This document shows, piece after piece, positions 1,606 through 54,910 of a DNA stretch of 64,000 bases (position 1 is the stretch's first letter; every line of letters begins with the position of its first letter). The position numbers and the translations under genes are program-made. Under the pieces are notes generated by a model. It was not told where the DNA came from. It made no database searches and was given only the letters and a program-made list of their open reading frames with translations. Source of the DNA: an uncultured Gammaproteobacteria bacterium (GTDB taxonomy: Bacteria; Patescibacteriota; Patescibacteriia; JAHIZJ01); NCBI GenBank assembly GCA_964594455.1, contig CAZQLY010000006.1:8629-72628 (forward strand). The letters are read 5' to 3'.

Positions 1606-1609
1606 ATTA

Positions 1610-3091: not shown

Positions 3092-3121
3092 GACTAGTTT
3101 TTTATGATTAGTGCTAAATAT

Positions 3122-4102
3122 TTAGTAAGGATCAAACTTACCAGTGAGAATTTTTATGATATTTTGTTGATAGAAGGTAACAGCTTTCTTGCGCAGAGGC
3201 TTTTCGGCCGGATGAGTGGTGCGCATGAAGTAATCTATATTGCTGATCCCTTGCAAGAGGGCTTCAACCTCGAATAAACCGTCAAAAGCTTTTTTGTATA
3301 AAGTTTGTTTCTTGAAGTTGTTTAGTAGATACTTTTGCCAGCCTGGGTGCATGAAAGCCCTATTCCAAATAACGGAGATGTCATGGGCTGGATTTCCCCA
3401 ATCTACATTTTCCCAATCGATTATATAGAACTTATTTTTACCATATTTAAAGAAGTGGCTGGCGTATGGCTCGTAATGGGTTAATACACTTTGGTGATTG
3501 TCAAACAAAGCTTCGTTTTTTATCAGTCTATACTTTATCTGTTCGGCTGCGTGTGGGAAATCAACAAAGCCGGGAATTTTATGCCATCCGATCAGTTCCA
3601 TGTTGGTAGCCAAGGTATGTTTGGCGTAGACTTTTTTTAGCTTAGCTGGAAATCTTTGAGAGAATTTATGCATTCCCGCAAAGAAATTGACCAGCCAGTC
3701 TGCTGTTTCATGTTTAAAGAATGATGGCTGAAACACAAAGTTGCTTTCCTTGATGTTTTGAGGCTCGCCATCCAAATATTCTCTGATGTACCAGGCGCGT
3801 CCTTTGAAATTTGAGTGATGGATTTTTGGAGTAGCTTGATGAAAGGACGTTTGTTTATGTTCGTGAAAGTGATTGAGGGTAATGATTTCACGTCGAATGC
3901 CATTGTTGGTTCGAGGATCAATTCGGTTAACGTAAAGACAGGTCTTGAAAACGACTGACAGGTGGTTCATCCAGCATTTGGCTACATAAAAACGGGGACC
4001 GTTTCTATTTACCTTTGCAATACGTAGTTTGTACCGCTTAACTATTCTGTCCTTGTTTTTTTTAGCAGCACTAAGCTGCTTTTTTCTTACGGCGGGATCC
4101 AT
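3122..4102 (-). CDS. APH-like phosphotransferase-family kinase (possible sugar kinase / maltokinase-like)
   Basis: YIIDWENVDWGNPAHDIS matches the APH/CotS/choline-kinase D-x-E/DFG-equivalent motif. A putative catalytic-loop H-x-E lies upstream. The track ORF starts at 4174; start set at the internal Met at 4102 to reduce overlap with the upstream gene. Confidence 0.5.
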   Translation of the reverse strand: MDPAVRKKQLSAAKKNKDRIVKRYKLRIAKVNRNGPRFYVAKCWMNHLSVVFKTCLYVNRIDPRTNNGIRREIITLNHFHEHKQTSFHQATPKIHHSNFKGRAWYIREYLDGEPQNIKESNFVFQPSFFKHETADWLVNFFAGMHKFSQRFPAKLKKVYAKHTLATNMELIGWHKIPGFVDFPHAAEQIKYRLIKNEALFDNHQSVLTHYEPYASHFFKYGKNKFYIIDWENVDWGNPAHDISVIWNRAFMHPGWQKYLLNNFKKQTLYKKAFDGLFEVEALLQGISNIDYFMRTTHPAEKPLRKKAVTFYQQNIIKILTGKFDPY

Positions 4103-5501
4103 GCTTTTTGGTGAGCAGATGCTTCTTTTCTTGCAATTCAGTAACACGATCACGAATCTGAGCTGCTCGCTCATATTCTTTGTTCCTGGCTGCTTCCAGC
4201 ATCTGGCGATTTAAATTGTTAACTATCGAATTAAATTCCTTGACAGGAATGTAGGGCATTTCAACCGTAATTCTTTGAGTAACATCTTCATCGGCCAACT
4301 TGGCTAGACTTTCTACTTTGCCAGTTCTCTGCCACTCAAAAGCGGAGAAAATAATTGATTGATATAACTGCTGGGCTTTTTGATAGGTTGATTTAGGAAG
4401 GTTTGGTACCATCAGGATCACGTCTCTCAATTCTTTGGCTCCAGCTTCAATCATTTCAATGCTCCACCAAGGCATAGCAGAGGCCCACCAGTATTGATCA
4501 CTATGCAATGAACGATCTAAGGCTTTTCTAATAGACGGATATTTCTTAGACTTGGGGTTCAGATTGTTGACTGATTTAATAGCCATATTAGTCAGTTGCC
4601 ACTGGGCTTGGTGTATTTCATTATTCTTGTCGTTCCAGCGTGAAAAAGGAGTGTTTTGTTCGATGTCGCGCTGCATTAGAGCCCAGCTGGAGGAATGAGG
4701 GACTATCCCTTCTCGTTTTGTGAACACATCATTTAATTCCGACAAAGTGACGCTTTTTATTTGAGGAACTTTATATAAGTCAAAAAGCAGCTGCTCTAAT
4801 CCCGGGCGATGATGTCCAAAAGTCTCTCCATCCATGGCAGTCACGAGAAAATTCTTTTGTTGGAGACGCTTGCCGAGCAAATTAACTAACATTTTACTTG
4901 AAAAAACGCTCACGCCAACCTGAGCGGATAATATTCTGAAACTGACATCACGTTCACGGAAAAAGAAGGACAACTTTTCATCTCCCTTAAGATGGTAAAT
5001 TGTGTCGTGGCTAATGTTTTTATGATCGGGGTGAGCCAACTCATCCATAATAATCCAACGGTAGCCCAGCTTTTGAGCGACCTTGGCTATCTTGGGGGCA
5101 TATCCCATTTCGGTGGGGAAAAGACCGGTCGGATTATAGGATTTTCCAAAATATTTTTTGTTGGTCGCGTGATTGAGTTTAATCTGACGGATGATTTCTG
5201 ATTCTGGTAACAGGGGCAAAAAAGGATGGTATTTTGCCGTGTCAGTGAATTCTATTTGACCGCGATCAGCCAATTTTTTAATATCCCGCACAACATCCAG
5301 ACAACCGTCACGCTTAAAAAGCTCAACTAAAACAGCGTTTATGTTTAAAGTAAGACGGGCCTTGGGGTTTTTCAATAATCCAGCTACGATCTTGCGGTAG
5401 CTTTCATTTGCGATTTTCTTTACCCAATAACTCTTTTGAGTAGGTGGTTGATAAAAATGTAGAAAGTTTGCCCAATACATAAGGTAATTATAGATTAACA
5501 A
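4071..5501 (-). CDS. GH57 family glycoside hydrolase (alpha-amylase / branching-enzyme family) with a C-terminal UVR-like motif
   Basis: N-terminal WANFLHFYQPP GH57 signature. C-terminus EYERAAQIRDRVTELQEKK resembles the UvrB/UvrC UVR helical hairpin and is followed by a Lys/Arg-rich tail. Confidence 0.75.
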   Translation of the reverse strand: MLIYNYLMYWANFLHFYQPPTQKSYWVKKIANESYRKIVAGLLKNPKARLTLNINAVLVELFKRDGCLDVVRDIKKLADRGQIEFTDTAKYHPFLPLLPESEIIRQIKLNHATNKKYFGKSYNPTGLFPTEMGYAPKIAKVAQKLGYRWIIMDELAHPDHKNISHDTIYHLKGDEKLSFFFRERDVSFRILSAQVGVSVFSSKMLVNLLGKRLQQKNFLVTAMDGETFGHHRPGLEQLLFDLYKVPQIKSVTLSELNDVFTKREGIVPHSSSWALMQRDIEQNTPFSRWNDKNNEIHQAQWQLTNMAIKSVNNLNPKSKKYPSIRKALDRSLHSDQYWWASAMPWWSIEMIEAGAKELRDVILMVPNLPKSTYQKAQQLYQSIIFSAFEWQRTGKVESLAKLADEDVTQRITVEMPYIPVKEFNSIVNNLNRQMLEAARNKEYERAAQIRDRVTELQEKKHLLTKKHGSRRKKKAA

Positions 5502-5519
5502 TTAAAAAATACAAAACTT

Positions 5520-6752
5520 TTATTTTACTTTCTCACCGCCAAAAAATCGAGTAAAGGCCTCATTGCCTAAATACTGACGACGTATTTCATCGGCTTTACC
5601 TGTTTCCTGCCAGCGATTTGTCAGATTGACAATATCATCATACAGGCCGGAAGCCTGCTTCATAAACGTTGGCTCGGCTTCAAAAGCCCGGAATACTCTC
5701 AGTGTTTTATGTGCTGCTAAGGCGACAATGCGGGTATCCCACCAAGGCGAAGCTGCCGCCCACCAGTATTGATCTGAGGCCAGAGCCTTATCCAGTAAGT
5801 TTCGAGCGTGCTGGTATCCAGGGTTGTTTGAGGATAACTCTTTTATGCTTTTTATGGCTAGGTTGGTCAGCTGCCATTGTTTTTGGTGGATCTCGTTCTC
5901 TTTGTTTTTCCAGAGAAAATAAGGTTCCTGGTCTTTTAATTCCGATTCACGTGAGGCCCAGCTAGCCGGCCGAGGCTTAACAGTCTCATATTTCGAGTAT
6001 TGTTTCAAGAGCTGACTCAGGGTCAAAGATTGTACATTTTTTGAGCCAATCAAACGAAACCAAATGGGTAATAATTTTGGGTTATGGTGTCCAAGATTTT
6101 CACCGTCAAAAGCCGTAATAAGATACTTAGTTACCCGATCGCTCTTTTCAACCGCGTCCATGAATGTCTTGGGGGTTTTCAGTATATCCATAAAAAACAA
6201 ATCGCTGATTAATCGATTACGAAATACCACCTTCAAATCATCAGTACCTATTTGATATCCGTGGTTAAATGAAATTTTTCCGACTGTACCTTTGGCTGAT
6301 ATTTCATCCAGAACCACCCACCGGTAACCCAAATCTTTAATTATTTGGGCCACGGAATCGCTGTAGCACATTTCAGGAATAAAGAAGCCTTTAGGACGAT
6401 AGACAGAACCAAAAAATTTTCTGTTACAATCATAGTTTAACTGTATTTGCCTTTCGACCTCAGAAGAGTCGACCAAAGCTAAAATGGGATGATATTTAGC
6501 CGATCCGGTAAATTCAATTTGTCCGTTTCCAGCCAATTCCTTTATTGATTCCAGAACCTCAGTATGGCCGTATTGGTATAGTTGCTCGGTAAGCGAACCG
6601 CAAACGTTTAAAGTAATCTTGAATTCAGGGTATTTTTTCAGAGTTTGAAAAAAAGGCGCGTATGATTCCTGAACTACTTTTGCGATGATAGTTTTATCCC
6701 AATCTGGAGGCTGGTAGATGTGAAAAAGGTTCGCCCAGTAAAATTGTTTCAT
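5520..6752 (-). CDS. GH57 family glycoside hydrolase, paralog of the upstream gene
   Basis: N-terminal WANLFHIYQPP. Collinear similarity to the 4071-5501 product (QIEFTxxAKYHP, LGYRW). Confidence 0.75.
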   Translation of the reverse strand: MKQFYWANLFHIYQPPDWDKTIIAKVVQESYAPFFQTLKKYPEFKITLNVCGSLTEQLYQYGHTEVLESIKELAGNGQIEFTGSAKYHPILALVDSSEVERQIQLNYDCNRKFFGSVYRPKGFFIPEMCYSDSVAQIIKDLGYRWVVLDEISAKGTVGKISFNHGYQIGTDDLKVVFRNRLISDLFFMDILKTPKTFMDAVEKSDRVTKYLITAFDGENLGHHNPKLLPIWFRLIGSKNVQSLTLSQLLKQYSKYETVKPRPASWASRESELKDQEPYFLWKNKENEIHQKQWQLTNLAIKSIKELSSNNPGYQHARNLLDKALASDQYWWAAASPWWDTRIVALAAHKTLRVFRAFEAEPTFMKQASGLYDDIVNLTNRWQETGKADEIRRQYLGNEAFTRFFGGEKVK

Positions 6753-6756
6753 TTGA

Positions 6757-8235
6757 TTAAGACTTTTTACCCTCTGAATAACGTAGAGCTAAGCGGTATA
6801 GTTTAACATATTTTTTAGCGGGAATTTCCCAGGAATAACTTTTGTGCATACCAACAACGACTAGATCGTGCCAGCTATCATCATATTTGTAAGTTTCCAA
6901 AGCTCGGGTTATAGCAATTAACAAGTCTCGCGAATCGTATCGTTTAAAGACAAAGCCGTTACCTTTCTTAGTTTTGGGGTTATAGTCAGTTACTGTGTCG
7001 ACCAGTCCCCCAACAGCGCTGACTATTGGTACAGAACCATAACGTAGGCTGATCAGCTGCCCCAAACCGCAAGGTTCAAAGCGCGAAGGCATGAGAAACA
7101 TATCTGAGCCGGCATATATTTGACTGGCCTTCTTGGTGTCAAATATCAGATGACTGCCAACTTTCTTGGAATATTTTTTAGTAATTTTCCTGAAATATTT
7201 TTCATACCTTTTTTCGCCACCACCAACCAGTACCAACTGAAGGTCTTGACGCATTAAGGGTTCGATAATTTCCATTATTAGATCAAAGCCTTTTTGTTCG
7301 GTAATTCTCGAGACCATTCCGATTAAAGGCACGCCGGGCGTTTCCGGTAGGTTAAATTCTTTTTGCAGAAAATGCTTGTTCTTTTCTTTTTTATGTAGCG
7401 AATTAAAATCGTAGTTTTTATGCAAACCGGGATCAGTAGCCGGGTTGAAGTCGAAATAATCAATCCCGTTGATTATTCCAAATAAGCGATCTTTGCGATT
7501 CAAGAGAATGCGATGTAAATCCTGCCCGAATTCCTTGGTTATTATTTCTTGAGCGTACTGTTCTGAAACAGTGTTGATCACATCAGCATAGAGTATGGCT
7601 CGTTTGGCAAAGTTTATGCAGCTGATTGCTTCTTTGTCAGAAAAGAGGGGTAGGCGTGAGTGACCGTAATCCTTCTTTTCAGGAGGGACGGTCCACCAAT
7701 CTTGTCCCATTTGAAAAGCCAAATTATGTATGGTAAAAAGAGTAGCCGTGTCCTTGAAAAATGAATTATTGCGGAAACGCTTCTTCAAGAAATAAGGGAT
7801 TAAACCAGTATGCCATTCATGGCAGTGTACTATATCTGGCTTGAAGTTCATTAGGGTAAGGAGTTTCAAAGCCGCCAAGGAAAAAAATAAAAACCTTCGG
7901 TTGTCATCCTGGGATCCATAGATAAACTTGTATTTACCGAAATGATGGTAATGTTCCACAAAGAACACCGGCAAGCCAGGCATCAACTCGCCCTGCCAGA
8001 AGTTAGCGTGCCGAACGTTTTTATCATCTATCTTGATAGGAATGTTCTCAGCGTATTTTTTTAAGTTATATTTTTTTACATCAATAACTCCATGTAGGGG
8101 CATGATGGCCACTACTTCATGATTTAGCCGATGCAAAGCTTTGGGCAGTGATCGAGCGACATCTGCTTGGCCGCCCGCTTTGGCAAACGGAGCGATTTCA
8201 GCGGAGATAGACGCTATTTTTAATTGCTTGGGCAT
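6757..8235 (-). CDS. glgA: Glycogen-synthase-like GT5 glycosyltransferase (second GlgA paralog)
   Basis: AKAGGQADVARSLPKAL N-terminal motif. C-terminal block AGSDMFLMPSRFEPCGLGQLISLRYG identical to the first GlgA. Confidence 0.8.
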   Translation of the reverse strand: MPKQLKIASISAEIAPFAKAGGQADVARSLPKALHRLNHEVVAIMPLHGVIDVKKYNLKKYAENIPIKIDDKNVRHANFWQGELMPGLPVFFVEHYHHFGKYKFIYGSQDDNRRFLFFSLAALKLLTLMNFKPDIVHCHEWHTGLIPYFLKKRFRNNSFFKDTATLFTIHNLAFQMGQDWWTVPPEKKDYGHSRLPLFSDKEAISCINFAKRAILYADVINTVSEQYAQEIITKEFGQDLHRILLNRKDRLFGIINGIDYFDFNPATDPGLHKNYDFNSLHKKEKNKHFLQKEFNLPETPGVPLIGMVSRITEQKGFDLIMEIIEPLMRQDLQLVLVGGGEKRYEKYFRKITKKYSKKVGSHLIFDTKKASQIYAGSDMFLMPSRFEPCGLGQLISLRYGSVPIVSAVGGLVDTVTDYNPKTKKGNGFVFKRYDSRDLLIAITRALETYKYDDSWHDLVVVGMHKSYSWEIPAKKYVKLYRLALRYSEGKKS

Positions 8236-9576: not shown

Positions 9577-10644
9577 ATGAAAACACTTAATGATACGCAA
9601 AAAATTTCCAAGCTGGATAAAAGCAAGATGTTTCGATCCATTGAAGAATTACCTCTTCAATGTGAGCAAGCCTGGACTGAAATAAAGCAGTTAAAAGTGC
9701 CTTCAAGATACAAAAAATACTCTCATATTGTGGTAAACGGTATGGGTGGCTCAGGTTTAGGGGCCCACACCGCCCTTTCTTTGTTTAGAAAGCAGCTCAA
9801 GATGCCATTTGAAATAACGCATAGCTATCAAATACCGAAAGCAGTCGGACCGAATACGCTTTATTTTGCTGTTAGTTATTCCGGGAACACTGAGGAAATA
9901 ATTTCGGCTTACCACAAAGCTAAAAAGCGTGGAGCCAAGATAGTAATTATTGCCAAAGGGGGTCAATTATCTCAATTGGCAAAGAAGGACAAACAGCTAG
10001 CTTACATATTTGAAGAAAAATATAATACTTGCCAGCAACCCAGAATGGGCGTTGGCTACAATCTGATATCTTTACTTGGACTTCTGAAAAAGTTAAAGCT
10101 GATTAACATTACTGACAGACAATTCGAATCAGCGCTGTTGGCTTGCCGTCGGGTCAATACTAAAAATAAAATAACGGTAAAAAATGGCCTGGCTAAAAAT
10201 ATCGCCAGTAAACTGCATGGTCACGTGCCAATCGTGGTGGCTTCTGAGTTTTTGGAGGGCAATGCCCATATCTTGTCCAATCAGATAAATGAAAACGGAA
10301 AGAATTTTGCGACCTACTTTACAATTCCAGAATTAAACCATCATTTATTGGAGGGGATGGGTAATCCAGCCGGAAAGACCGGAAACCTGTACTTTTCGTT
10401 TTTCACCTCGAACCTATACAACCCCAGAAACCAAAAGAGGTATGATATTACCAGAAAGATTTTGAACAAATATAAAGTAAAGTCGTTCACTTATAAACTT
10501 AAGGCCAAATCTGAATTAGCCCAATCGCTGGAAATGTTGGCCTTAGGCAGCTATATTGGATATTACCTTGCGATGTTAAATAATATTGATCCTTCACCAA
10601 TACCCTGGGTTGATTATTTCAAGGCTCAGCTTAAAAAGAGCTAG
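9577..10644 (+). CDS. SIS-domain sugar isomerase, bifunctional phosphoglucose/phosphomannose isomerase family
   Basis: SIS-like GMGGSGLG and YFAVSYSGNTEE motifs, 355 aa. Confidence 0.6.
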   Translation: MKTLNDTQKISKLDKSKMFRSIEELPLQCEQAWTEIKQLKVPSRYKKYSHIVVNGMGGSGLGAHTALSLFRKQLKMPFEITHSYQIPKAVGPNTLYFAVSYSGNTEEIISAYHKAKKRGAKIVIIAKGGQLSQLAKKDKQLAYIFEEKYNTCQQPRMGVGYNLISLLGLLKKLKLINITDRQFESALLACRRVNTKNKITVKNGLAKNIASKLHGHVPIVVASEFLEGNAHILSNQINENGKNFATYFTIPELNHHLLEGMGNPAGKTGNLYFSFFTSNLYNPRNQKRYDITRKILNKYKVKSFTYKLKAKSELAQSLEMLALGSYIGYYLAMLNNIDPSPIPWVDYFKAQLKKS

Positions 10645-10654
10645 GACAGTAAAC

Positions 10655-11563
10655 ATGAATCTTTTTGGAGCAGTGCAAAGGATAAAGCGATATCTTGTGG
10701 AAGATCGTCGTTATCGACGAGCTTTTTATTTTGTCTACTTTATTGTTTTAGTTGTCTTCTGGATAGTTGATGGGGGCCAGTATTCAAATGACATGATTTG
10801 GTTATGGCTGCTGGCAATTTTAATCTTCCTGCCCATGAAGGGATTTATGAAGGACTGGTGGCCGCTTCTGTTAACCCCTTTTGCCTATCGAGCCATGCAT
10901 GGTTTTACAGACTTATTAAACGAAAATGTTAACATTACTAATATTATTAGCTGGGAGAGAGGATTATTTGGCAACATTCCTACAATAATTTTGCAGGATT
11001 GGCTGCATTTGAGTTCTGAATTGCATTGGTATGACTTTATGCTTTCACTTTTTTATAGTTCATTTTATTTGCTGCCGATAGCAGCAGCCTTGATTCTATG
11101 GTTTAAAAAAAGGGAAGTTTTTCATATATTTGCTGATGGCTTTATCTTGATGACGCTGGCTGGTTATGCTACTTATGTTCTATTTCCAGCCATGCCGCCC
11201 TGGTTAGCCAGTCAAGGAGGATATCTGCCAGAAATCCCCAGGCTTTATGCTCAGGCCAGCCAAGCTATATTTAATATAGACCTGGCAGCTACTTATGCGT
11301 CTATGAAGGCTAATTTAGTAGCAGCCATGCCATCCCTTCATGCAGCTTGGCCGTTTTTTATCTTCCTATGTTTAGCTTTGGCTTTTCGTTGGAAATCTTT
11401 ATGGTTTGCCATCTTTCCTCTGGCAATTTGGTTCGGGATAGTATACTTAGGGGAACACTACGTGGTAGATGCTATAGCCGGAATAATATACGCCAGTTTA
11501 GCATTTATTATTTCAAAGTATTTATTTCAAAAAAAGACTAATGAAGATGAATTCGCGAGCTAG
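10655..11563 (+). CDS. PAP2-superfamily membrane phosphatase-like protein
   Basis: Multiple TM helices. PSLHAAW and GEHYVVDAIAG fit the PAP2 PSGH and SRx5Hx3D motifs. Internal Met start chosen to avoid overlap (track ORF starts at 10586). Confidence 0.55.
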   Translation: MNLFGAVQRIKRYLVEDRRYRRAFYFVYFIVLVVFWIVDGGQYSNDMIWLWLLAILIFLPMKGFMKDWWPLLLTPFAYRAMHGFTDLLNENVNITNIISWERGLFGNIPTIILQDWLHLSSELHWYDFMLSLFYSSFYLLPIAAALILWFKKREVFHIFADGFILMTLAGYATYVLFPAMPPWLASQGGYLPEIPRLYAQASQAIFNIDLAATYASMKANLVAAMPSLHAAWPFFIFLCLALAFRWKSLWFAIFPLAIWFGIVYLGEHYVVDAIAGIIYASLAFIISKYLFQKKTNEDEFAS

Positions 11564-13124
11564 AAAAACACTGCCAATCGTTATTATTTTTATTGTTTCA
11601 TTTGTATTCTTCTTTATATTGCAATATAGCCATACTTTGGCTGATCCGGATTCTTTTTATCATGCTAAGATGGCCTTGCTGATGAAGGATCAAATCGTGG
11701 TAAAATCTTTTCCTTGGCTGGGAGACTTCACGGTTTTAGGAGAAGCTTATACCGATCAGCATTATTTATACCATCTGTTTTTAATCCCTTTTGTCAGCTG
11801 GCTCAATCCTATTACCGGATTGAAATTAGCTACCGTTATTCTGGCTTCCTTGCTGGTAGTAACTTTTTATCTGGTCTTGAGCCGATTGCGTATTCCTTAT
11901 GCACCTTGGTTTAGTTTATCATTGCTAATCATCAGCCCACTGGTCTTCAGAGTTAGTCTGGCCAAAGCCCCGAGCTTCTCCCTGATAATATTTTTACTTG
12001 GAATATATTTTATAGTAGCGCATCGCTGGAAATGGCTGCTGGCACTGTCATTCATTTATGTCTGGGCGTATGGTGGTTTTGCTTTGATTGTTTTGGCCAG
12101 TGGCCTGTATCTGGGAATAAAAATATTAACTGACTTCCTGACAACGATATGGAGCGAGGGTATCAAAAAAGTAAAATGGCTCAGGACCTTTTTTCCTTGG
12201 GACACCTGGCGCTTGTTTTTAGTTTCGTTATTTGGAGTGGCTGCCGGAGTAGTAATCAATCCTTATTTCCCGCAAAACTTACAGTATTATCGCTATCAGC
12301 TGTATGAGATTGGTGTAAAAAATTATCAGAAGTTGATAGGAGTAGGCAGTGAATGGTATCCTTACGACCCGCTTTCTTTGATGAGCGACACAGTGTTTTT
12401 GACCATTTTATTCTTAGCTGCTCTGGCAATATTCATCGTGCAGATAAAAAAGCAAACTCACCGCGAAGTATTTTTTCTGGCTTTGGCCATAATTTTCCTT
12501 CAGTTAACATTGAAGTCTCGTCGCTATGTCGAATATTACGTACCCCTGAGCTGTTTATTTGGCAGTGTGGTGGCTGGTACGTATTTAGCCGGAGTAAATA
12601 TTACCAAAATATGGAATTCATTTGTTGATTTTTATACCAGAAAGAAAATAATCGTCACTATCATTGCACTGTATTTTTTAGTGACTGTTCCAACTATTAT
12701 TATCAAACATTATTTGGAAGAGAGAAGCAGTCTAACCAACGGTATCCCCTATACTAAATTTCAAAAAGTGGGACAGTGGCTAGGCGAACATTCTGAAAAA
12801 GGTGATATTGTCTTCCATAGCAGTTGGGATGAATTTCCTATGTTGTTTTATCACGATGATGTAAACAACTATATCGGTGGATTAGACGCTACATTTAACT
12901 ATCTTTATGATAAGGATATTTATCAGAAATGGGTTGACATAACTACTGGAGATAAGACAGATAATTTACATGAGATTATAAAAAATGACTTTCGGGCTAC
13001 CTATGTGCTAGCTAGCCAGAAACATAATGCCATGAAAAAAAATATCAATGACTCTAGTGGCTTTCGCCAGGTATATGAGGACAGTGAAGCAGTGGTATAT
13101 AAAGTATTATGTTGTGGAAAATAA
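11541..13124 (+). CDS. Polytopic membrane protein, putative GT-C type glycosyltransferase (ArnT/PMT-like)
   Basis: 527 aa, at least ten predicted TM segments then a soluble C-terminal domain. Function inferred from topology only. Confidence 0.4.
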   Translation: MKMNSRARKTLPIVIIFIVSFVFFFILQYSHTLADPDSFYHAKMALLMKDQIVVKSFPWLGDFTVLGEAYTDQHYLYHLFLIPFVSWLNPITGLKLATVILASLLVVTFYLVLSRLRIPYAPWFSLSLLIISPLVFRVSLAKAPSFSLIIFLLGIYFIVAHRWKWLLALSFIYVWAYGGFALIVLASGLYLGIKILTDFLTTIWSEGIKKVKWLRTFFPWDTWRLFLVSLFGVAAGVVINPYFPQNLQYYRYQLYEIGVKNYQKLIGVGSEWYPYDPLSLMSDTVFLTILFLAALAIFIVQIKKQTHREVFFLALAIIFLQLTLKSRRYVEYYVPLSCLFGSVVAGTYLAGVNITKIWNSFVDFYTRKKIIVTIIALYFLVTVPTIIIKHYLEERSSLTNGIPYTKFQKVGQWLGEHSEKGDIVFHSSWDEFPMLFYHDDVNNYIGGLDATFNYLYDKDIYQKWVDITTGDKTDNLHEIIKNDFRATYVLASQKHNAMKKNINDSSGFRQVYEDSEAVVYKVLCCGK

Positions 13125-13161: not shown

Positions 13162-13569
13162 TTAGGCTAAGCGCAGAAAACTTTCTTCTTCCCCGCTACC
13201 ATAGACCAGACCATCTATCACAAATGTAACAATCGCCCAGGCTAGGAGTATTACTGCCAGCCCTATGATAACAGTGGTGATTGTTTTTTTGGCTGTAGTA
13301 ATTCGCTCTTCATTGCCAGCGGCAGTTAACCAGAGGACGCCAGCATAAATTATCATAATAACCCCGATCAGCCCCAAAGAGAGCAATAACCATTTTACAA
13401 TATTGGTAAAAGAAGAAGGCAGGTCGTTAGGGAGGCCCAGCTGTTCTTCAACCTCAGAACTCACTCCGATGTCGGTGGTCTGAGCATTGAGTATTATTGG
13501 TAAAACCAAAAATGATATTCCCGCCAGGGCAAAGAATACTTTTAAAATTAATTGTTTTTCTAATCTCAT
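13162..13569 (-). CDS. T4SS-pilin-like (TrbC/VirB2-like) small membrane protein, paralog 1
   Basis: Signal peptide, then two C-terminal TM helices around IIYAGVLWLTAAGNEERITTAKKTITTVIIGLAVILLAWAIV. Confidence 0.65.
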   Translation of the reverse strand: MRLEKQLILKVFFALAGISFLVLPIILNAQTTDIGVSSEVEEQLGLPNDLPSSFTNIVKWLLLSLGLIGVIMIIYAGVLWLTAAGNEERITTAKKTITTVIIGLAVILLAWAIVTFVIDGLVYGSGEEESFLRLA

Positions 13570-13713
13570 AGCAGTTATTTTATATGACTTTTCATATCTA
13601 TTATAGGCTATGCTACACAAAAACACAAACCAGAGTTAACTAAAATAAAACTACCCCGGAAATATCAGGGATAGTTTTATGCAATATATTGCTTGATATA
13701 TTGACCTTGGCAA

Positions 13714-14088
13714 TTATGAGTTATTACTTGCGTCGATTAAGCCTTGAGTAACAAACCAGACGATTGCCCAAGCCAGCAGTATGATGACTAAACCGATGAT
13801 AGCAGCAGAAATAATTTTCTTGGCGCTAGCAATCCTTTCTTCATTACCAGCGGCAGTTAACCATATGAAACCACCATAAATTATCATGATGACAGCTACC
13901 AAAGCTAAGAATCCTAGTACCCAAGAAATGATGTTTGTGATCTGGTCGGCTAAAGAAGTGTCTTCATAACCGATAGCATTGCCAACATTATTAAGAATGT
14001 TGATGGCACCGAATGTGGTTGGGGCGAAAGTCAGAAGCAGCAGGCCGGCCAAACCGATGATCGAAACATAGCTAGTTAGTTTTTTCAT
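13714..14088 (-). CDS. T4SS-pilin-like (TrbC/VirB2-like) small membrane protein, paralog 2
   Basis: IIYGGFIWLTAAGNEERIASAKKIISAAIIGLVIILLAWAIVWFV. Signal peptide. GGGGG SD upstream. Confidence 0.7.
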   Translation of the reverse strand: MKKLTSYVSIIGLAGLLLLTFAPTTFGAINILNNVGNAIGYEDTSLADQITNIISWVLGFLALVAVIMIIYGGFIWLTAAGNEERIASAKKIISAAIIGLVIILLAWAIVWFVTQGLIDASNNS

Positions 14089-14204
14089 TATTTCACCCCC
14101 TTTCTTAGAAAACTTGCGTTTTTGTTATTAGATAATGTGTATATTATTTGCCTATCGAATATATTCTACACCAAGAAAGGCAATTTGTCAAACATAGTAA
14201 TAGA

Positions 14205-14573
14205 TTAAGACGCTCCTCTGAAGGCATCAATGACAAAATTGACTATAGCTAAGCTCAAGAAAGCTATAGCCATTCCAATGAGCGCCCAAACAATAGTGTC
14301 TTTGGCCTTTTTCACCTGTTCGGGGTTTCCAGCTGAATAAATGTATTGGAAGCCACCATAGATAACCATCACCAGGGCAAAAAGCGACAATATTCCCAAA
14401 AAGCCAGTTAGTAATCTAACTATTAAATCCTCGGCATCCATATTATTATCGCCAATAGGGTTATTTATACCAGCCGTGCCTCCTTCAGCCTGAACATAAT
14501 GTGGCGTAGTTAAAAATAAAACCAAAGCGCTAAATAACGTAAGTCCAATTAGGAAGAATGAAATGGATTTCAT
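14205..14573 (-). CDS. T4SS-pilin-like (TrbC/VirB2-like) small membrane protein, paralog 3 (more divergent)
   Basis: VIYGGFQYIYSAGNPEQVKKAKDTIVWALIGMAIAFLSLAIVNFVI, same architecture. Confidence 0.6.
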   Translation of the reverse strand: MKSISFFLIGLTLFSALVLFLTTPHYVQAEGGTAGINNPIGDNNMDAEDLIVRLLTGFLGILSLFALVMVIYGGFQYIYSAGNPEQVKKAKDTIVWALIGMAIAFLSLAIVNFVIDAFRGAS

Positions 14574-14603: not shown

Positions 14604-16013
14604 CTATTCTTTAAGCTGTTCGTTTTGATTAATCATCAGCTCAGCCTCTTTGGTGGCGTTATTTTCGGTAATTTCATTATGCAGAACGCCATCAATCATG
14701 AAGGCAAAGGCTTCCTCAACCTTGGAGTAATCTTTGCCGTGATACCAGGATTGACTGGTTAAGGCTTGATTGACAAAGGGAGCTATTTCTTCGTCCTGGT
14801 CAATTTGCAGATTAATGATTTCTCGCAGGGCTGAAGGGCGAACCGTGGCATTAACATAATTCACCACCTGTTCTTTCTGAGTTGCAAAATAGAGAAAATC
14901 CCAGGCGTAATTAACGTTTTCAGAATTATTGTAAACGCTTTCTACCCAGTAATTAGCAAAGTTGGCTTCTTGATTGAGACTAATCTGGGGAAGAGGAGCA
15001 ATATCGAAGTTCAATCTAGGGGCGGCGTCTTCTATCATTGGCAAATGATAAGAGTATCCGATAAAGTAGGCTAATTGTCCTTGAGTGAAGGCCTCAAAAG
15101 AATCAGGTAATTCCTCGTTCCAGGTATAGGCTTGCTTGGAGGGGTTAGCCAGATCAGTGTAAAAGAGTAAAGCGTGTGACCCAGGATGAAATTTATTTCC
15201 GTCGGCATCCGCTATGGATTCGTTAAAGCTGGCCCGAAACTCATTTTTTTCATCAATCCGGCTCATGTCGGCTCCATCCTGGATCATTAGCAAAGAAAGA
15301 ATATCAACGTATCTTTGTATATTATTTGTTGTGCCAATGGCGACAGCTGATTGAGTAAGCTCGCCCTTGCTGTTTTCTTTGACTAGTTTTGGTATTTGTA
15401 CCAGCATTTCACTCCAGGTAGTTGGTGGTAAAGGAATATTGGCTTGATTAAGCATGTCTCGGTTGTAATACAGGGCTAGGTTATCGATACTATAAGGCAA
15501 ACCATAGACGCGTCTTTGTCCGTCTTCATCATAAAACACAACATCGTCCACTACTGCCGGTAAGAAAGTGTCTCGCATATCGCTAATTGAATATGTTTTT
15601 GTCTGATCAAGAACTTTTGTCTTTTCTTTTTTGAAGCCTAAAACGGTTCGAATCTCAATCTTTGGAATTTCTAATACTGGTGGCAAAGGAGCCATGAATT
15701 CCAAGTAGCCGCCTACCCAAGAGTTAGGGATAGAAAAAATATCAGGTCCCTCATCTCTAGCCCAGGCAGAAAGTAGCTCGTCTCTATATTCTTCGAAACG
15801 GAGTTTACGATATTCAAATTCAACATTAGGATGAGATTTGTGATACTCATCCATTATGTCTTTGAGGGTATCTTCTTCATCCCAGACGCGCCAAACCTTT
15901 AACGTTACAGGATTAAGTTCGACATCTTTGCCACCGCAGATGGCGCCGGTTAAAACTACCGAGCTTAGCAATAAAGCTATGGCTGATAATTTGATTGAGA
16001 ATCGTAAGCGCAT
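14604..16013 (-). CDS. Extracellular solute-binding protein (ABC transporter, family 1, sugar-binding type), lone
   Basis: Signal peptide, 469 aa. No permease or ATPase genes adjacent. Confidence 0.6.
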   Translation of the reverse strand: MRLRFSIKLSAIALLLSSVVLTGAICGGKDVELNPVTLKVWRVWDEEDTLKDIMDEYHKSHPNVEFEYRKLRFEEYRDELLSAWARDEGPDIFSIPNSWVGGYLEFMAPLPPVLEIPKIEIRTVLGFKKEKTKVLDQTKTYSISDMRDTFLPAVVDDVVFYDEDGQRRVYGLPYSIDNLALYYNRDMLNQANIPLPPTTWSEMLVQIPKLVKENSKGELTQSAVAIGTTNNIQRYVDILSLLMIQDGADMSRIDEKNEFRASFNESIADADGNKFHPGSHALLFYTDLANPSKQAYTWNEELPDSFEAFTQGQLAYFIGYSYHLPMIEDAAPRLNFDIAPLPQISLNQEANFANYWVESVYNNSENVNYAWDFLYFATQKEQVVNYVNATVRPSALREIINLQIDQDEEIAPFVNQALTSQSWYHGKDYSKVEEAFAFMIDGVLHNEITENNATKEAELMINQNEQLKE

Positions 16014-16885
16014 TATTTTACAACCTGCTTTAAATATTTTTTAAATTCTTTGTTAAGTTGTGGATGTTTCAAACCAAAAGCCACATTTGCTTTTAACCAT
16101 CCCAGCTTAGACCCCAGATCATATATCTGGCCCGACAGTTCGCAACCGAAGACCGCCCGTTTTTTGTTATATAAATCTACTGCATCGGCCAGCCAGATCT
16201 CTCCCCCTTTGCCCTTTTTAACTTTTCTCAAATAGCTGAATATGCTGGGCGGTAATACGTAACCTTTCAGAGAAGCCAGATTGGAAGGTGCTTGTTTCAA
16301 AGTTGGTTTTTCGATCACACCAGTAACTTCATGCACGTTCTTTTTTATATGCTTTATATAAGCGATGCCGTATTTGGTAATGTCGCTTTTTTTAACCGGC
16401 AGTAGCCCCATAACCGGTGATTCGTATTCTTTATAGACTTCAATCATCTTTTTGATTGGGTTTTCTTTTGAAACTATCAAATCATCTGGATACATCAGCA
16501 CAAAAGGCTCGTTACCAACTGCCGCCTCAGCCATCAAAGTGGCGTGCCCATTGCCCAGCGGTTGAGGTTGTCTGACATAAATAAAATTAGCCAACTGTTG
16601 AACTCGAGTGATGGCTTTTAAAGCTTCTCGTTTTTTGCTTTGTTTCAGGGTGCGCTCCAGCTCAGGATTTGAATCAAAGTGGTCTTCAATGGCGCGTTTA
16701 CTGGATCCGGTGACTAGTATAATGTCTTTTATTCCGGCGGCCACCGCCTCTTCAACTGATAGCTGTAAGCCTGGTGTATCAATTATCGGAAGCATTTCCT
16801 TAGGCAGGGCTTTGGTGGCGGGCAGAAAGCGTGTCCCGAATCCTGCTACTAAAATTACCGCTTTTTTTACTTTTGTGTTTTGCAT
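16013..16885 (-). CDS. galU: UTP-glucose-1-phosphate uridylyltransferase
   Basis: VILVAGFGTRFLPATKALPKEMLPI nucleotidyltransferase signature, 290 aa. Confidence 0.85.
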   Translation of the reverse strand: MQNTKVKKAVILVAGFGTRFLPATKALPKEMLPIIDTPGLQLSVEEAVAAGIKDIILVTGSSKRAIEDHFDSNPELERTLKQSKKREALKAITRVQQLANFIYVRQPQPLGNGHATLMAEAAVGNEPFVLMYPDDLIVSKENPIKKMIEVYKEYESPVMGLLPVKKSDITKYGIAYIKHIKKNVHEVTGVIEKPTLKQAPSNLASLKGYVLPPSIFSYLRKVKKGKGGEIWLADAVDLYNKKRAVFGCELSGQIYDLGSKLGWLKANVAFGLKHPQLNKEFKKYLKQVVK

Positions 16886-17620: not shown

Positions 17621-18214
17621 TTAAATTTTACCTACTAAACCTAAGCCTGGTTTGAGAGTCTTCTCACCCGGCCTCCAACGGGCGGGACAAACCTGGCCGG
17701 GGTTTTCTCTGACAAAGATAGCCGCTTGGAGCTTTCTGAGAAGCTCTTGAGCGCTACGCCCGATATTATTGTCATGAATCTCATAGGCTTTGATTTTGCC
17801 GTCAGGGTCAACGATAAAGCTGCCACGCAAAGCTAGGCCTTCATCAGTCAGATACACGTCCAACTCTTTGCAGAATTTCCCGGTTGGATCTGACAGCATA
17901 GGAAACTTTATTTTTTTAATAGCTTCCGAGTTGTCGTGCCAGGCTTTGTGTACAAACACAGTGTCTGTGCTGACGCTCATGATCTCGGCTCCGGCTTTTT
18001 GAAACTCCGGGTAAAGCTCAGCCGCGTCTTCCAACTCGGTTGGACAGACAAATGTAAAGTCAGCCGGATAAAAGATTAGAGCCACCCACTTTCCTTTATA
18101 ATCAGACAGCTTAATCTTTTTTATTTCTTCGTTGTGATAAGCCTCCAACTCAACGCTGCTGATATCCTTACCTATAAGATTATGATCCGGAGTCGGGGTT
18201 GTGGATTCGGTCAT
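17621..18214 (-). CDS. 2-Cys peroxiredoxin (AhpC/TSA family)
   Basis: FTFVCPTE peroxidatic-Cys motif and a C-terminal resolving-Cys region. Confidence 0.85.
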   Translation of the reverse strand: MTESTTPTPDHNLIGKDISSVELEAYHNEEIKKIKLSDYKGKWVALIFYPADFTFVCPTELEDAAELYPEFQKAGAEIMSVSTDTVFVHKAWHDNSEAIKKIKFPMLSDPTGKFCKELDVYLTDEGLALRGSFIVDPDGKIKAYEIHDNNIGRSAQELLRKLQAAIFVRENPGQVCPARWRPGEKTLKPGLGLVGKI

Positions 18215-19506
18215 ATTTTTCCTTTGTGATTGTTAATTATATTGTCATAGGGATATTTGTACCCGATATTGAAACGATGGTTGCGGTTAAGATAGTAGTC
18301 AAACAACCTGAGATAGGCTAGCAGTGAGCTGGTAGTTAAAAAGTTTTTTCTAACATGTTCTTTAGCCTGTTGACCCAACCTCCGACGTAGCGGTCGGTTA
18401 TTCAATAATTTTAGGCAGGCTGTTGCCGCCTCAGAGTTGTTGTTTACCAGGATACCGGTTTTTCCATTTATGACTTGGAGAGGTATACCCCCCACCCTGG
18501 CGCCTACCACTGGAGTACCTTTCCAGAGAGCTTCAGCTATGGTCATAGCAAAACCCTCACGGAGAGATTTTTGCAATATGACATCAGCGCCGGTTTGAAC
18601 AGCATTAACCGTTAGATCGTTATTTGATGGATTCAATAGAACTGTGATGTTGGAATGAGGTTTGGTTCGTTTTATAACTTCTCGATATATAGCCGGCCCT
18701 TCTGGATCATCTATTGCCATATTGCCCAGCAGTATCAACTGGCATTTCTTCTGACGACTGACTTGCTCGAAGACTTTTACTACTCCGAGCGGGTCTTTCC
18801 ATTTATCAAACCGAGAAACCTGAGCGATTATAGGTGTATTCAATTTGATTTTGTGTGAATGCAGAATTGAGGCAACCTCTTTTCGGGACAACGGGAGATT
18901 TTTTTCAGCCAGAGGATCAACTAGTGGAGCGATTAGTACTTGTTTAATATTTAAGGACTTTTGATAATAGGTTGGCGAAGTGATCACCATGGCATCATAT
19001 TGTTCTATAGATGGCTTCAAATAATTTAATAATTTTTTGTCAGGTCGGCTTAAATCTATATGACAGCGCCAAATCCAAGGCACTCTTTTTTTATAAAAAT
19101 TAATCAAGGCTAATGGCTGGGGATCATGGATGACTACCAAGTCGTTTCTTTCTAGATGTGTGTTCAAGGCGTTATTAAAATTTGTTTGCTCGTAAAGCCT
19201 TTTCTTTTTGTTGTTGAGCTTGATGTCAGCACCTTGGAGAGCGTTATGAAACTCTTTAGTGACCTGAAAGAAGTTGTCGGAGCCTTTTAAAATATGCCAC
19301 TCAACCTCCAAACCCAGAGAATTTAATAAAATAATAATTGAGTTCAAGATCTCAGCCACGCCGCCTCCAGCTGGAGTCGAATTGACCATGGCAATTCTTT
19401 CTCCGATCAGCTGTGAAGACAGGAGTTTAATCTCTGAGATAGTTTTTTTGTCAACGAACGGTTGGTAATCGTCAATCGTACGACACTCTAGTCCTTGATG
19501 AGGCAT
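18211..19506 (-). CDS. GT4 glycosyltransferase, TreT-like (trehalose glycosyltransferring synthase-like)
   Basis: N-terminal VNSTPAGGGVAEIL...FFQVTKEFHNALQG resembles the TreT N-terminus. C-terminal GT4 motif (GIPLQVINGKTGILV). Confidence 0.55.
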   Translation of the reverse strand: MPHQGLECRTIDDYQPFVDKKTISEIKLLSSQLIGERIAMVNSTPAGGGVAEILNSIIILLNSLGLEVEWHILKGSDNFFQVTKEFHNALQGADIKLNNKKKRLYEQTNFNNALNTHLERNDLVVIHDPQPLALINFYKKRVPWIWRCHIDLSRPDKKLLNYLKPSIEQYDAMVITSPTYYQKSLNIKQVLIAPLVDPLAEKNLPLSRKEVASILHSHKIKLNTPIIAQVSRFDKWKDPLGVVKVFEQVSRQKKCQLILLGNMAIDDPEGPAIYREVIKRTKPHSNITVLLNPSNNDLTVNAVQTGADVILQKSLREGFAMTIAEALWKGTPVVGARVGGIPLQVINGKTGILVNNNSEAATACLKLLNNRPLRRRLGQQAKEHVRKNFLTTSSLLAYLRLFDYYLNRNHRFNIGYKYPYDNIINNHKGKI

Positions 19507-49956: not shown

Positions 49957-50035
49957 TGTATTGGTGATAAAAGTTAAAAGATGGTAACTAAAAATCACCC
50001 TTTATTATACTAAAAACTGTCTGTTAATACAAAAC

Positions 50036-54849: not shown

Positions 54850-54910
54850 ATTATCCTTATTATTGATAGCTATTTTATATTTATTTAAGAAATATACTAT
54901 TATTATAGCA

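What the first reader, a model, noticed from the sequence alone, without database searches (positions are those of the whole stretch)
13162..14573. Three tandem T4SS-pilin-like (TrbC/VirB2-type) paralogs
Three consecutive small secreted proteins share an identical architecture. Each has a signal peptide, a variable region and a conserved C-terminal double-TM hairpin with the motif IIYGG[FV]xWLTAAGNEE...AKK.I...IIGL.IILLAWAIV. This is the layout of conjugative/T4SS pilins, not of PilA-type type IV pilins, which have an N-terminal G/FTLIE. No VirB4, VirB6 or VirD4 is in the window, so these may be orphan structural subunits. Variable N-halves suggest antigenic or adhesive diversification. Such pilins are proposed to matter for host attachment or DNA uptake in episymbiotic ultrasmall bacteria.
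Basis: partly seen in the sequence, partly recalled or inferred. Interest (0 to 1): 0.55.

Follow-up and report, generated by a model that had tools for sequence, protein, structure and literature searches.

The report
Sugar-binding-protein-linked VirB2-like pilin gene trio
Three small neighbouring genes in an ultrasmall (Patescibacteria) bacterium do encode conjugative-type "pilin-like" membrane proteins, a very common and already described family; the only fresh point is that in this lineage they sit in an operon with a sugar-binding protein rather than next to secretion-machine genes.

Summary
Three minus-strand genes (14573-14205, 14088-13714, 13569-13162) each encode a signal peptide, an acidic linker of about 20 aa and a conserved two-helix membrane hairpin. 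All three pass Pfam's PF18895 (T4SS_pilin) threshold.

VirB2-like pilin arrays of 2-11 genes in Patescibacteria were described in 2025 (PMC12102498). The family has about 80,000 representative clusters.

The "diversifying paralogues" idea is not supported. The A and B types are ancient and hold fixed positions across relatives. All three genes evolve under purifying selection, and about half of the "variable N-half" is just the signal peptide.

"Orphan" could not be tested. No T4SS ATPase lies in the window or within 6-10 kb of 163 related loci. However, 80% of Patescibacteria assemblies encode VirB4 elsewhere.

The added finding is a conserved operon. In this Kerfeldbacteria-like lineage the array is translationally coupled to an upstream oligosaccharide-type solute-binding protein, often preceded by GalU (38/39 loci; 61/70 in the reverse test). 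The 2025 paper does not mention this context.

Verdict: new member of a known kind, low-to-moderate interest.

The parts
14205..14573 (-). Pilin A (122 aa), the A-type, TrbC-like member. It starts 30 nt after the SBP stop codon.
   Evidence: PF18895 47.8 bits, PF04956 TrbC 29.4 bits (cut-off 27.9). NF045849 53.8 bits (cut-off 40). A-type pilins occupy the position before the B-types in many related arrays. A is 53% identical to a pilin lying 5.5 kb from a T4CP-like ATPase in L091.
13714..14088 (-). Pilin B (124 aa), the B-type and the commonest type in related arrays.
   Evidence: PF18895 49.6 bits. 324 close homologues, all PF18895 and nearly all Patescibacteria. AF2 hairpin model. GGGGG Shine-Dalgarno 8 nt upstream of the ATG.
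13162..13569 (-). Pilin C (135 aa from the ATG at 13569; the mechanical ORF extends to a GTG at 13626). It is a B-derived duplicate found only in the window's close relatives.
   Evidence: PF18895 46.9 bits. Called as 135 aa on L001. C-type seen only in L002, L008 and L009. B-C core identity is 60% with synonymous sites saturated (pS 0.90), so this is not recent gene conversion.
14604..16013 (-). Membrane-tethered solute-binding protein (469 aa, oligosaccharide-SBP-like, lipobox-like GAIC). It is the conserved upstream operon partner of the pilin array.
   Evidence: PF13416/PF01547. Closest solved relatives are arabino-oligosaccharide and trehalose/maltose binding proteins. 38/39 SBP genes in pilin-selected loci are followed directly by a pilin-domain gene, median gap 3.5 nt. 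61/70 in SBP-selected metagenome loci. N-termini.
16013..16885 (-). GalU-like UTP-glucose-1-phosphate uridylyltransferase. Its stop codon overlaps the SBP start at 16013.
   Evidence: PF00483. TIGR01099 320 bits against a cut-off of 326.8. Present upstream of the SBP in 30 pilin-selected loci and in 29/60 SBP-selected loci.
14163..14191 (-). Sigma-70-like promoter match (TTGACA-17-TAGAAT, 11/12) upstream of pilin B.
   Evidence: It is only a consensus match. The total number of promoter-like sites in the region is not above the shuffled expectation.
13654..13670 (-). Terminator-like hairpin plus T-run between pilin B and pilin C.
   Evidence: 1 site found against 3.9 expected in shuffles, so this is weak evidence.
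11541..13124 (+). Conserved 527-aa polytopic membrane protein of unknown family, convergent on the array. It recurs next to these arrays.
   Evidence: In 23 related loci. No Pfam, NCBIfam or PDB match, even when the family was scanned member by member. Invariant D35-P36-D37..Y40-H41 after TM1. The single-sequence AF2 model was unusable.

Best explanation
The three genes encode VirB2-like pilin-family subunits (Pfam T4SS_pilin) of a Kerfeldbacteria-like (GTDB class ABY1) Patescibacterium.

Shown:
- Each protein has a Sec-type signal peptide, an acidic linker of about 20 aa, and a conserved helical hairpin of two TM helices joined by a K/R-rich loop. This predicts the N-out/C-out topology of VirB2/TraA propilins.
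- The trio is the pilin array of a conserved operon, GalU - membrane-tethered oligosaccharide-type SBP - pilin array. The order is an A-type pilin followed by B-type pilins. This lineage has lost the pilin-fusion gene that precedes the A-type pilin in many relatives; that fusion carries a PG_binding_1 domain in the two tested (L007, L014).
- The paralogues are old, positionally conserved and under purifying selection. They look like non-redundant subunit types rather than antigenic variants.

Inferred:
- After signal-peptide cleavage the hairpins pool in the membrane.
- They are then extracted and polymerised by the monoderm-type T4SS (VirB4 plus partners) encoded elsewhere on the chromosome.
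- The product is a surface filament or conduit used in the epibiotic interaction. The co-translated SBP would act with it, most plausibly as a glycan-binding partner.
For: - Family membership: PF18895 above threshold for all three, and PF04956 and NF045849 above threshold for A.
- Homology to a pilin-like protein 4 kb from a VirB4-like ATPase in a Firmicute plasmid: hhalign 96.3%, E = 1.5e-9.
- An A-like pilin (53% identity) lies in a RecG-containing locus with a T4CP-like ATPase. That matches the published description of ABY1 T4SS loci.
- Architecture and topology.
- Orthologous trio with conserved synteny in a relative at 70% identity.
- Selection: core pN 0.17-0.33 and N-part pN 0.35-0.49, against pS 0.57-0.90.
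- Positional A/B types.
- SBP coupling.
- Literature: pilin arrays are essential and lie inside the T4SS cluster in S. epibionticum (PMC10633639). 441 arrays occur in 383 assemblies, VirB4 in 80% of assemblies, and pilins lie away from virB4 in about 40% of VirB4-positive genomes (PMC12102498). A Kerfeldbacteria genome with the same module (L069, GCA_002774635.1) is VirB4-positive.
Against: - No T4SS ATPase or other T4SS component lies in the 64-kb window or within 6-10 kb of any of about 163 related loci.
- The array's constant partner is an SBP, and glycosyltransferase-like membrane proteins often follow it (DUF2079, GT2, PMT_2-like). That is not a T4SS context.
- Three of the six Kerfeldbacteria assemblies visible in the paper's table lack a detected VirB4.
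- The same 2-TM module is fused to PG-binding domains and to giant surface proteins of 1,500-3,400 aa. That suits a membrane anchor as well as a polymerising pilin.
- The fold search is uninformative, giving generic hairpins only.
- No pilus of this family has been visualised.
Confidence: 0.55

Rival explanations
1. T4SS-independent module. The SBP and the 2-TM pilin-like proteins form their own surface or membrane apparatus. It could be a scaffold that displays or anchors a glycan-binding protein, or a sugar-capture or uptake device. It would be linked to envelope glycosylation genes, with the pilin fold exapted as a small oligomerising membrane hairpin.
For: - SBP-pilin translational coupling holds in 38/39 and 61/70 loci from two independent samplings.
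- No T4SS ATPase lies near any of these loci.
- GalU lies upstream, and DUF2079, GT2, PMT_2-like and unknown polytopic proteins lie downstream.
- The window's array sits inside a carbohydrate-metabolism neighbourhood: GlgA x2, GH57 x2, PGI, TreT and GalT.
- The module is fused to PG-binding and giant extracellular domains.
- Several Kerfeldbacteria assemblies are VirB4-negative.
Against: - Sequence homology is to T4SS-cluster pilin-like proteins.
- A-like pilins also occur at T4SS-type loci.
- Unrelated housekeeping genes (PGI, YebC, RuvC) also stay syntenic, so part of the context is phylogenetic inertia.
- No ABC permease or ATPase accompanies the SBP.
- MAG incompleteness can explain the VirB4-negative assemblies.
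Confidence: 0.3
2. The paralogues are orphan subunits whose variable N-halves are diversifying for antigenic or adhesive variation, as proposed for Bartonella and Anaplasma VirB2 paralogues.
For: - The linker and C-tail are less conserved than the hairpin: column identity 0.53 and 0.46 against 0.73-0.80.
- pN in the N-part is about twice that of the core.
- The published discussion raises host-range versatility for such arrays.
Against: - The A and B types predate the divergence of many lineages and keep their positions.
- Each paralogue is closest to its positional orthologue.
- pN is below pS in every region, and synonymous sites are saturated, so positive selection cannot be shown.
- About half of the 'variable half' is signal peptide.
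- There are no repeats, no gene-conversion tracts and no invertible elements. The B-C core has pS 0.90.
Confidence: 0.1
3. An unrelated small two-TM family (holin, bacteriocin-immunity or toxin-like) that only mimics the pilin layout.
For: A short two-helix hairpin is a generic fold. Foldseek returns ATP-synthase subunit c, CHMP4B and similar hairpins.
Against: - There are no holin or immunity family hits even at E <= 1.
- Profile matches to T4SS_pilin, TrbC and Mbov_0395 are strong.
- There is a cleavable signal peptide.
- There is no phage or lysis context.
- The genes have a conserved chromosomal operon position.
Confidence: 0.02

Closest known systems
VirB2-like pilin arrays of Patescibacteria (Quinonero-Coronel et al. 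2025, PMC12102498; the essential array of Ca. Southlakia epibionticum ML1, Wang et al. 2023, PMC10633639)
   Same: Same Pfam family (PF18895/PF04956). Tandem array of sequence-divergent paralogues: 33-46% identity here, against a published mean of 25% and maximum of 54%. Monoderm host, chromosomal location, no relaxase context.
   Different: The S. epibionticum array lies inside the T4SS gene cluster. The window's array lies in a GalU-SBP operon with no T4SS gene within at least 10 kb. The published survey does not mention the SBP, GalU or glycosyltransferase context, and it reports arrays as most abundant in Microgenomatia and Saccharimonadia rather than ABY1.
TrbC/VirB2 conjugative pilins of Gram-negative T4SS (Pfam PF04956; the T-pilus and RP4 pilus subunits)
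   Same: Long signal peptide, two hydrophobic helices, a basic inter-helix loop and predicted N-out/C-out topology. Pilin A passes the PF04956 gathering threshold.
   Different: B and C do not reach the PF04956 threshold. The genes are not in a virB/trb operon. The host is a monoderm with no outer membrane. Pilus formation, cyclisation and lipid co-assembly are unknown.
Mbov_0395 family pilin-like conjugal transfer proteins of Mollicutes/Firmicutes ICEs (NCBIfam NF045849)
   Same: Homologous 2-TM hairpin (hhalign 96%). Monoderm setting. A scores above the family cut-off.
   Different: Those proteins are single-copy and lie in mobile-element T4SS clusters beside VirB4-like ATPases. Here there are three chromosomal copies in an SBP operon. 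B and C fall just below the cut-off (39.2 and 35.2 against 40).
VirB2 paralogue amplification in Bartonella and Anaplasma T4SS
   Same: Multiple tandem, divergent VirB2 paralogues in a host-associated bacterium.
   Different: There the variation is linked to immune evasion in animal hosts. Here the paralogues are ancient, positionally fixed types under purifying selection.

Membership tests
Pfam PF18895 T4SS_pilin | Whole-protein HMM score at or above the gathering threshold (26.6 bits) | tested here: met
   A 47.8, B 49.6 and C 46.9 bits. The precomputed hits on independent contigs agree.
Pfam PF18895 T4SS_pilin | Small protein with a signal peptide plus a two-TM helical hairpin | tested here: met
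   Hydropathy, AF2 model H46-78/H83-122, charge distribution.
TrbC/VirB2 pilin (Pfam PF04956) | HMM score at or above the gathering threshold (27.9 bits) | tested here: inconclusive
   A 29.4 bits (met). C 16.0 bits and B no hit (not met).
TrbC/VirB2 pilin (functional T4SS major pilin) | Encoded within or next to a T4SS gene cluster (VirB3, VirB4, VirB6) | tested here: not met
   None in the 64-kb window. No hit with PrgJ, a Firmicute VirB4 or a CPR T4CP-like ATPase as seeds in the window, in 83 pilin-selected loci or in 80 SBP-selected loci. The seed searches covered ATPases and PrgI only; VirB6 absence rests on the Pfam scans. Sensitivity for the divergent CPR VirB4 itself has no positive control.
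TrbC/VirB2 pilin (functional T4SS major pilin) | A VirB4 ATPase present somewhere in the same genome | not testable with these tools
   Only 64 kb of a 96-kb contig of a multi-contig MAG is available. Indirect evidence: 80% of Patescibacteria assemblies have VirB4, and one Kerfeldbacteria genome with the same module is VirB4-positive.
TrbC/VirB2 pilin (functional T4SS major pilin) | Fold matching solved conjugative pilins, and polymerisation into a pilus | tested here: inconclusive
   Foldseek against the PDB gave no hit at E <= 1e-3, only generic helical hairpins. The profile search of PDB sequences gave no hit. Polymerisation cannot be tested in silico here.
NCBIfam NF045849 Mbov_0395 pilin-like conjugal transfer protein | Score at or above the curated cut-off (40 bits) | tested here: inconclusive
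   A 53.8 (met). B 39.2 and C 35.2 (just below).
Patescibacteria 'VirB2 array' as defined in PMC12102498 | At least two PF18895/PF04956 pilin genes in tandem, or separated by one non-pilin gene, in a Patescibacteria genome | tested here: met
   Three tandem genes. Homologues are almost all Patescibacteria. Definition.
Type IV (PilA-type) pilins | N-terminal class III signal peptide with a G/FTLIE prepilin-peptidase site and a single N-terminal hydrophobic helix | tested here: not met
   The sequences read directly show type I signal peptides with AXA sites and two C-terminal TM helices. There are no type IV pilin Pfam hits.
Holins or other two-TM lysis proteins | Profile match to a holin family, or a phage/lysis gene context | tested here: not met
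   No holin family among the Pfam hits at E <= 1. The context is housekeeping.

The most novel reading that the evidence does not exclude
In ABY1/Kerfeldbacteria-like Patescibacteria, the SBP-coupled pilin arrays form a distinct apparatus that is genomically uncoupled from the T4SS ATPases. A membrane-tethered oligosaccharide-binding protein would act together with A-type and B-type VirB2-like hairpin subunits, and in many genomes also with a pilin-fusion gene (a PG_binding_1 domain in the two tested). The assembly would be a host-glycan-binding filament or a nutrient-capture conduit. The pilins might be glycosylated by the adjacent GalU, GT2 and GT-C-like enzymes. This would be a new functional use of the conjugative pilin fold.
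Probability: 0.2. Interest if true: 0.7.

Novelty: new member of a known kind. Interest (0 to 1): 0.3.

Why it matters
Patescibacteria make up a large share of bacterial diversity and live attached to other microbes. Their T4SS and pilin arrays are the only T4SS components known to be essential for a bacterium's growth, shown in S. epibionticum, yet what they transport or bind is unknown.

The window's trio adds nothing to the catalogue by itself. The conserved, translationally coupled partnership with an oligosaccharide-type binding protein does offer a concrete hypothesis: glycan recognition or capture at the host interface. It also offers a defined three- to five-gene unit (GalU, SBP, pilins) that could be tested by co-expression, complex prediction or imaging in an enrichment culture.

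Tried and rejected
1. Extending beyond the window to find VirB4. Look-ups of window-edge proteins returned only a 2.5-kb contig or nothing. The 96-kb NCBI contig is not retrievable, and the cluster look-up gave no accessions.

2. Identifying a T4SS ATPase in the same or a sister genome by matching contig lengths. I used a CPR T4CP-like ATPase as query.

3. Fold comparison of the pilin model with solved pilins gave only generic hairpins. The profile search against PDB sequences gave no hits.

4. A translated search of pilin A against 72,556 plasmids gave only one weak hit. It was still useful for its context.

5. Large neighbouring ORFs suspected of being VirB4 turned out to be ClpB/ClpC-type chaperones, PBP1, AcrB, TypA, DnaA, ComM and Der.

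6. Classifying the conserved 527-aa membrane protein failed. There is no Pfam, NCBIfam or PDB hit, even member by member.

7. Fetching R388 and RP4 pilins for a direct comparison failed, because those accessions are not in the collection.

8. Recent gene conversion between B and C was rejected, because synonymous sites are saturated.

9. The promoter and terminator scans are not enriched over shuffles, so those signals are only suggestive.
Full report
**Observation**

The window holds three consecutive minus-strand ORFs at the stated coordinates: A 14573..14205 (122 aa), B 14088..13714 (124 aa) and C 13626..13162. C probably starts at the internal ATG at 13569 (135 aa). That start yields a normal signal peptide, it is the gene model on an independent assembly of the same sequence (L001), and the 135-aa product is on record in the protein collection.

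Each protein has three parts. There is an N-terminal hydrophobic signal segment with an AXA-type site (VQA|E, TFG|A, LNA|Q), a linker of about 20 aa, and two long hydrophobic helices separated by a short charged loop. AlphaFold2 on a 40-sequence alignment predicts helix 2-20 plus a hairpin H46-78/H83-122, with pLDDT about 90 in the hairpin.

Across 40 family members the linker is acidic (D+E 2.6, K+R 0.2) and the loop is K/R-rich (3.3). This predicts an N-out/C-out topology with a cytoplasmic loop. Column identity is 0.73-0.80 in the hairpin against 0.46-0.53 in the signal peptide, linker and tail.

Core identities are B-C 60%, A-B 42% and A-C 36%.

**Family**

All three proteins pass Pfam PF18895 (T4SS_pilin) with 46.9-49.6 bits against a threshold of 26.6. 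A also passes PF04956 (TrbC/VirB2; 29.4 against 27.9). In NCBIfam, A passes NF045849 (Mbov_0395 pilin-like conjugal transfer protein; 53.8 against 40), and B and C fall just below it. No holin or type IV pilin family appears even at E <= 1.

A profile of the family aligns over the whole hairpin with a pilin-like protein of a Pontibacillus plasmid (hhalign 96.3%, E = 1.5e-9). That protein lies 4 kb upstream of a VirB4-like ATPase and a peptidoglycan hydrolase. So the link to monoderm T4SS clusters is real at the family level.

The fold search is uninformative, because any two-helix hairpin matches. The PDB sequence profile search finds nothing.

The family is very large. It has 80,606 representatives at 50% clustering with E <= 1e-3, and 26,893 with E <= 1e-10.

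**Organism and window context**

The window is ordinary chromosome of a Patescibacterium. Close homologues are labelled Patescibacteria or Kerfeldbacteria.

Its genes include glycogen and trehalose metabolism, RuvC, YebC, PGI, the SUF system, SHMT, FolD, RecA, FtsK, RpoB and RpoC. No VirB4, VirB6 or VirD4 is present. The FtsK has the full 4TM/alpha/gamma architecture of the chromosome translocase.

**What is already known**

Quinonero-Coronel et al. 2025 (PMC12102498) searched 3,035 Patescibacteria genomes with this same Pfam model. They report:

- VirB2-like pilins in 1,948 VirB4-positive assemblies;
- pilins near virB4 in 1,135 of those assemblies;
- 441 arrays of 2-11 pilin genes in 383 assemblies, with mean within-array identity of 25% (maximum 54%);
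- VirB4 in 2,417 of 3,035 assemblies, and T4CP homologues in 2,918.

Wang et al. 2023 (PMC10633639) showed that the T4SS cluster of S. epibionticum is essential for epibiotic growth, including a series of pilin genes inside that cluster.

Absence of T4SS genes from a 64-kb window does not make the genes orphans.

**Evolution of the trio**

A relative at 70% identity has the same three genes in the same synteny (L002). Each window paralogue is closest to its positional orthologue. Core identities are A-A2 70%, B-B2 78% and C-C2 49%.

Across 39 related arrays the order is conserved. It runs SBP, then often a long pilin-fusion protein, then an A-type pilin, then one or more B-type pilins. C is a B-derived copy confined to the window's close relatives. 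The window's lineage has lost the fusion gene that its nearest outgroup L008 still has.

Synonymous sites are saturated (pS 0.57-0.90). pN is 0.17-0.33 in the core and 0.35-0.49 in the N-terminal part. The B-C core has pS 0.90, which excludes recent gene conversion.

These are old, maintained subunit types. They are not a recently diversifying set. About half of the 'variable N-half' is simply the cleaved signal peptide.

**The added finding: an SBP-pilin operon**

I fetched 80 loci from reference genomes with the pilin profile and clustered the neighbouring ORFs. Counts among 83 non-redundant loci:

| Neighbour family | Loci |
|---|---|
| Solute-binding protein (window 14604-16013) | 39 |
| GalU-like gene upstream of the SBP | 30 |
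| DUF2079 | 25 |
| 545-aa polytopic protein of unknown family | 24 |
| 527-aa polytopic protein (window 11541-13124) | 23 |
| GT2 glycosyltransferase | 22 |
| PMT_2-like GT-C protein | 16 |

The coupling is tight. In 38 of 39 cases the SBP gene is followed directly by a pilin-domain gene on the same strand, with a median gap of 3.5 nt and many 4-nt overlaps. Of 50 arrays, 37 have the SBP. Eight of the 13 arrays without it are cut by a contig end within 1 kb upstream.

The reverse test selected loci by the SBP in a different collection (80 metagenome contigs, 40-75% identity to the window's SBP). A pilin-domain ORF starts within 500 nt downstream in 61 of 70 loci that have at least 450 nt of downstream sequence. 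Five of the nine exceptions have under 550 nt of downstream sequence.

The SBP resembles oligosaccharide-binding proteins of ABC importers, namely arabino-oligosaccharide and trehalose/maltose binders. It is membrane-tethered by a lipobox-like cysteine or an N-terminal TM anchor. No permease accompanies it.

In the window, the GalU stop overlaps the SBP start at 16013, and pilin A starts 30 nt after the SBP stop. B has its own 11/12 promoter-like site and a strong Shine-Dalgarno sequence, and a terminator-like hairpin follows B. These signal scans are not statistically enriched.

The 2025 paper does not mention solute-binding proteins, glycosyltransferases or DUF2079. My literature searches found no description of this linkage.

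**T4SS linkage in this lineage**

No T4SS ATPase was detected near any of the loci. I searched the window, the 83 pilin-selected loci and the 80 SBP-selected loci with three seeds: PrgJ of pCF10, the Pontibacillus VirB4, and a CPR T4CP-like ATPase. Walker-A proteins in the flanks are TypA, DnaA, ComM, Der, ClpB/C, DnaB and FtsK.

There is one caveat. PrgJ and the CPR T4CP-like ATPase barely detect each other. I had no bona fide CPR VirB4 as a positive control.

One A-like pilin (53% identical to A) does lie in a RecG-containing locus 5.5 kb from a T4CP-like ATPase (L091). That matches the published description of ABY1 T4SS loci. The Kerfeldbacteria genome behind L069, which has the same GalU-SBP-pilin-DUF2079 module, is listed as VirB4-positive. 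However, three of the six Kerfeldbacteria rows visible are VirB4-negative.

These genomes also carry other classes of pilin locus:

- a lone pilin between DnaB and a P-type ATPase;
- a lone pilin next to ClpB;
- giant proteins of 1,500-3,400 aa with an N-terminal pilin module.

**Mechanism**

Most likely (confidence about 0.55), the three proteins are Sec-exported and signal-peptide-cleaved VirB2-like subunits that pool in the membrane as hairpins. The monoderm-type T4SS encoded elsewhere would then assemble them into a surface filament or conduit. The co-translated SBP would act as a glycan-binding partner. Family membership, architecture, operon structure and selection are shown. Polymerisation, T4SS dependence and the SBP's role are inferred.

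The main rival (about 0.3) is that the SBP-pilin module works independently of the T4SS, as a surface or membrane device linked to sugar binding and envelope glycosylation. It is favoured by the constant non-T4SS context and by fusions of the module to PG-binding and giant extracellular domains. It is disfavoured by the homology to T4SS-cluster pilin-like proteins, and by the fact that unrelated housekeeping genes are also syntenic.

The antigenic-variation reading (about 0.1) and the unrelated-family reading (about 0.02) are poorly supported.

**Verdict**

The feature is a new member of a known, very common kind.

The modest added value is the SBP-coupled operon and the fixed A/B subunit order. 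Together they give a testable hypothesis about glycan recognition at the epibiont-host interface.

Noticed in passing
window 45547-49998 (-) and 50077-54930 (-): Two tandem giant secreted proteins (1,483 and 1,617 aa) with no Pfam hit. They are G/S/T/N-rich, 57% identical over their first 640 aa or so, and share a signal peptide ending AQA|EWSSPV. They have no pilin module. They lie next to a Mur ligase and a subtilase with FG-GAP repeats (56261-58747). They are probably surface adhesins.
   Followed up: partly
L025:9929-19432, L028, L038, L039, L043, L057, L063, L084 (related genomes): Giant proteins (1,890-3,442 aa) begin with a complete signal-peptide-plus-pilin-hairpin module followed by a huge extracellular region. 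They lie downstream of LepB-like (signal peptidase), HisRS-like and GatB/YqeY-like genes, assigned by reading the sequences rather than by profile search. The pilin fold seems to serve here as a membrane anchor or display module.
   Followed up: partly
representative library hits P0260, P0261, P0268 and others: Many predicted proteins contain 2-17 tandem pilin modules in one polypeptide (for example 1,775 aa with 17 matches). They could be real polyproteins, or arrays merged by gene callers, for example in lineages that use an alternative genetic code. I did not resolve this.
   Followed up: no
window 11541-13124 (+); family alignment A3: A 527-aa polytopic membrane protein is conserved next to these arrays in 23 loci, sometimes duplicated. 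It has no Pfam, NCBIfam or PDB match. It has an invariant DPD..YH motif after the first TM helix, which recalls GT-C glycosyltransferases (from memory, not tested).
   Followed up: partly
L052, L075, L078, L085: In some relatives the array contains a block of 3-7 pilin genes on the opposite strand. The block lies between the SBP-proximal pilin genes and a final plus-strand pilin, which suggests an inversion or a divergent sub-operon.
   Followed up: no
L091:15915-18437: A T4CP-like ATPase of about 840 aa (DUF8128 N-terminal region plus TrwB/TraG/DUF87 domains) is unusually conserved across Patescibacteria. The top 120 clusters are all at least 61% identical. It also has a fragmented or only partly annotated homologue 7-11 kb upstream of the pilin-like gene on the Pontibacillus plasmid (L089 about 4034-7750).
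   Followed up: partly
locus titles; P0137; L082: Many contigs with clearly Patescibacteria-type gene content and this operon are titled 'uncultured Gammaproteobacteria', 'Aenigmarchaeota archaeon' or 'Bdellovibrionales'. These are probably mislabelled or mis-binned MAGs.
   Followed up: no
window 676-8235 (-), 9577-10644 (+), 18211-19506 (-): The array sits in a dense carbohydrate-metabolism neighbourhood: GalT-like, two GlgA-like starch synthases, two GH57 enzymes, an APH-family kinase, PGI and TreT. Part of this synteny (PGI, YebC, RuvC, GlgA, GH57) is conserved in relatives (L002, L009, L090).
   Followed up: partly
L007:7688-8680, L014:8014-9183 and other first genes after the SBP: In many relatives the first gene after the SBP is a pilin module fused to a C-terminal extension (roughly 160-660 aa in total). 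In at least two cases the extension holds a PG_binding_1 domain. The window and its closest relatives lack this gene.
   Followed up: partly
window 28347-29225 (-): A 292-aa ORF whose only hit is a bacterial thrombospondin type-3 repeat just below threshold (24.7 against 25 bits). It may be a calcium-binding surface protein.
   Followed up: no
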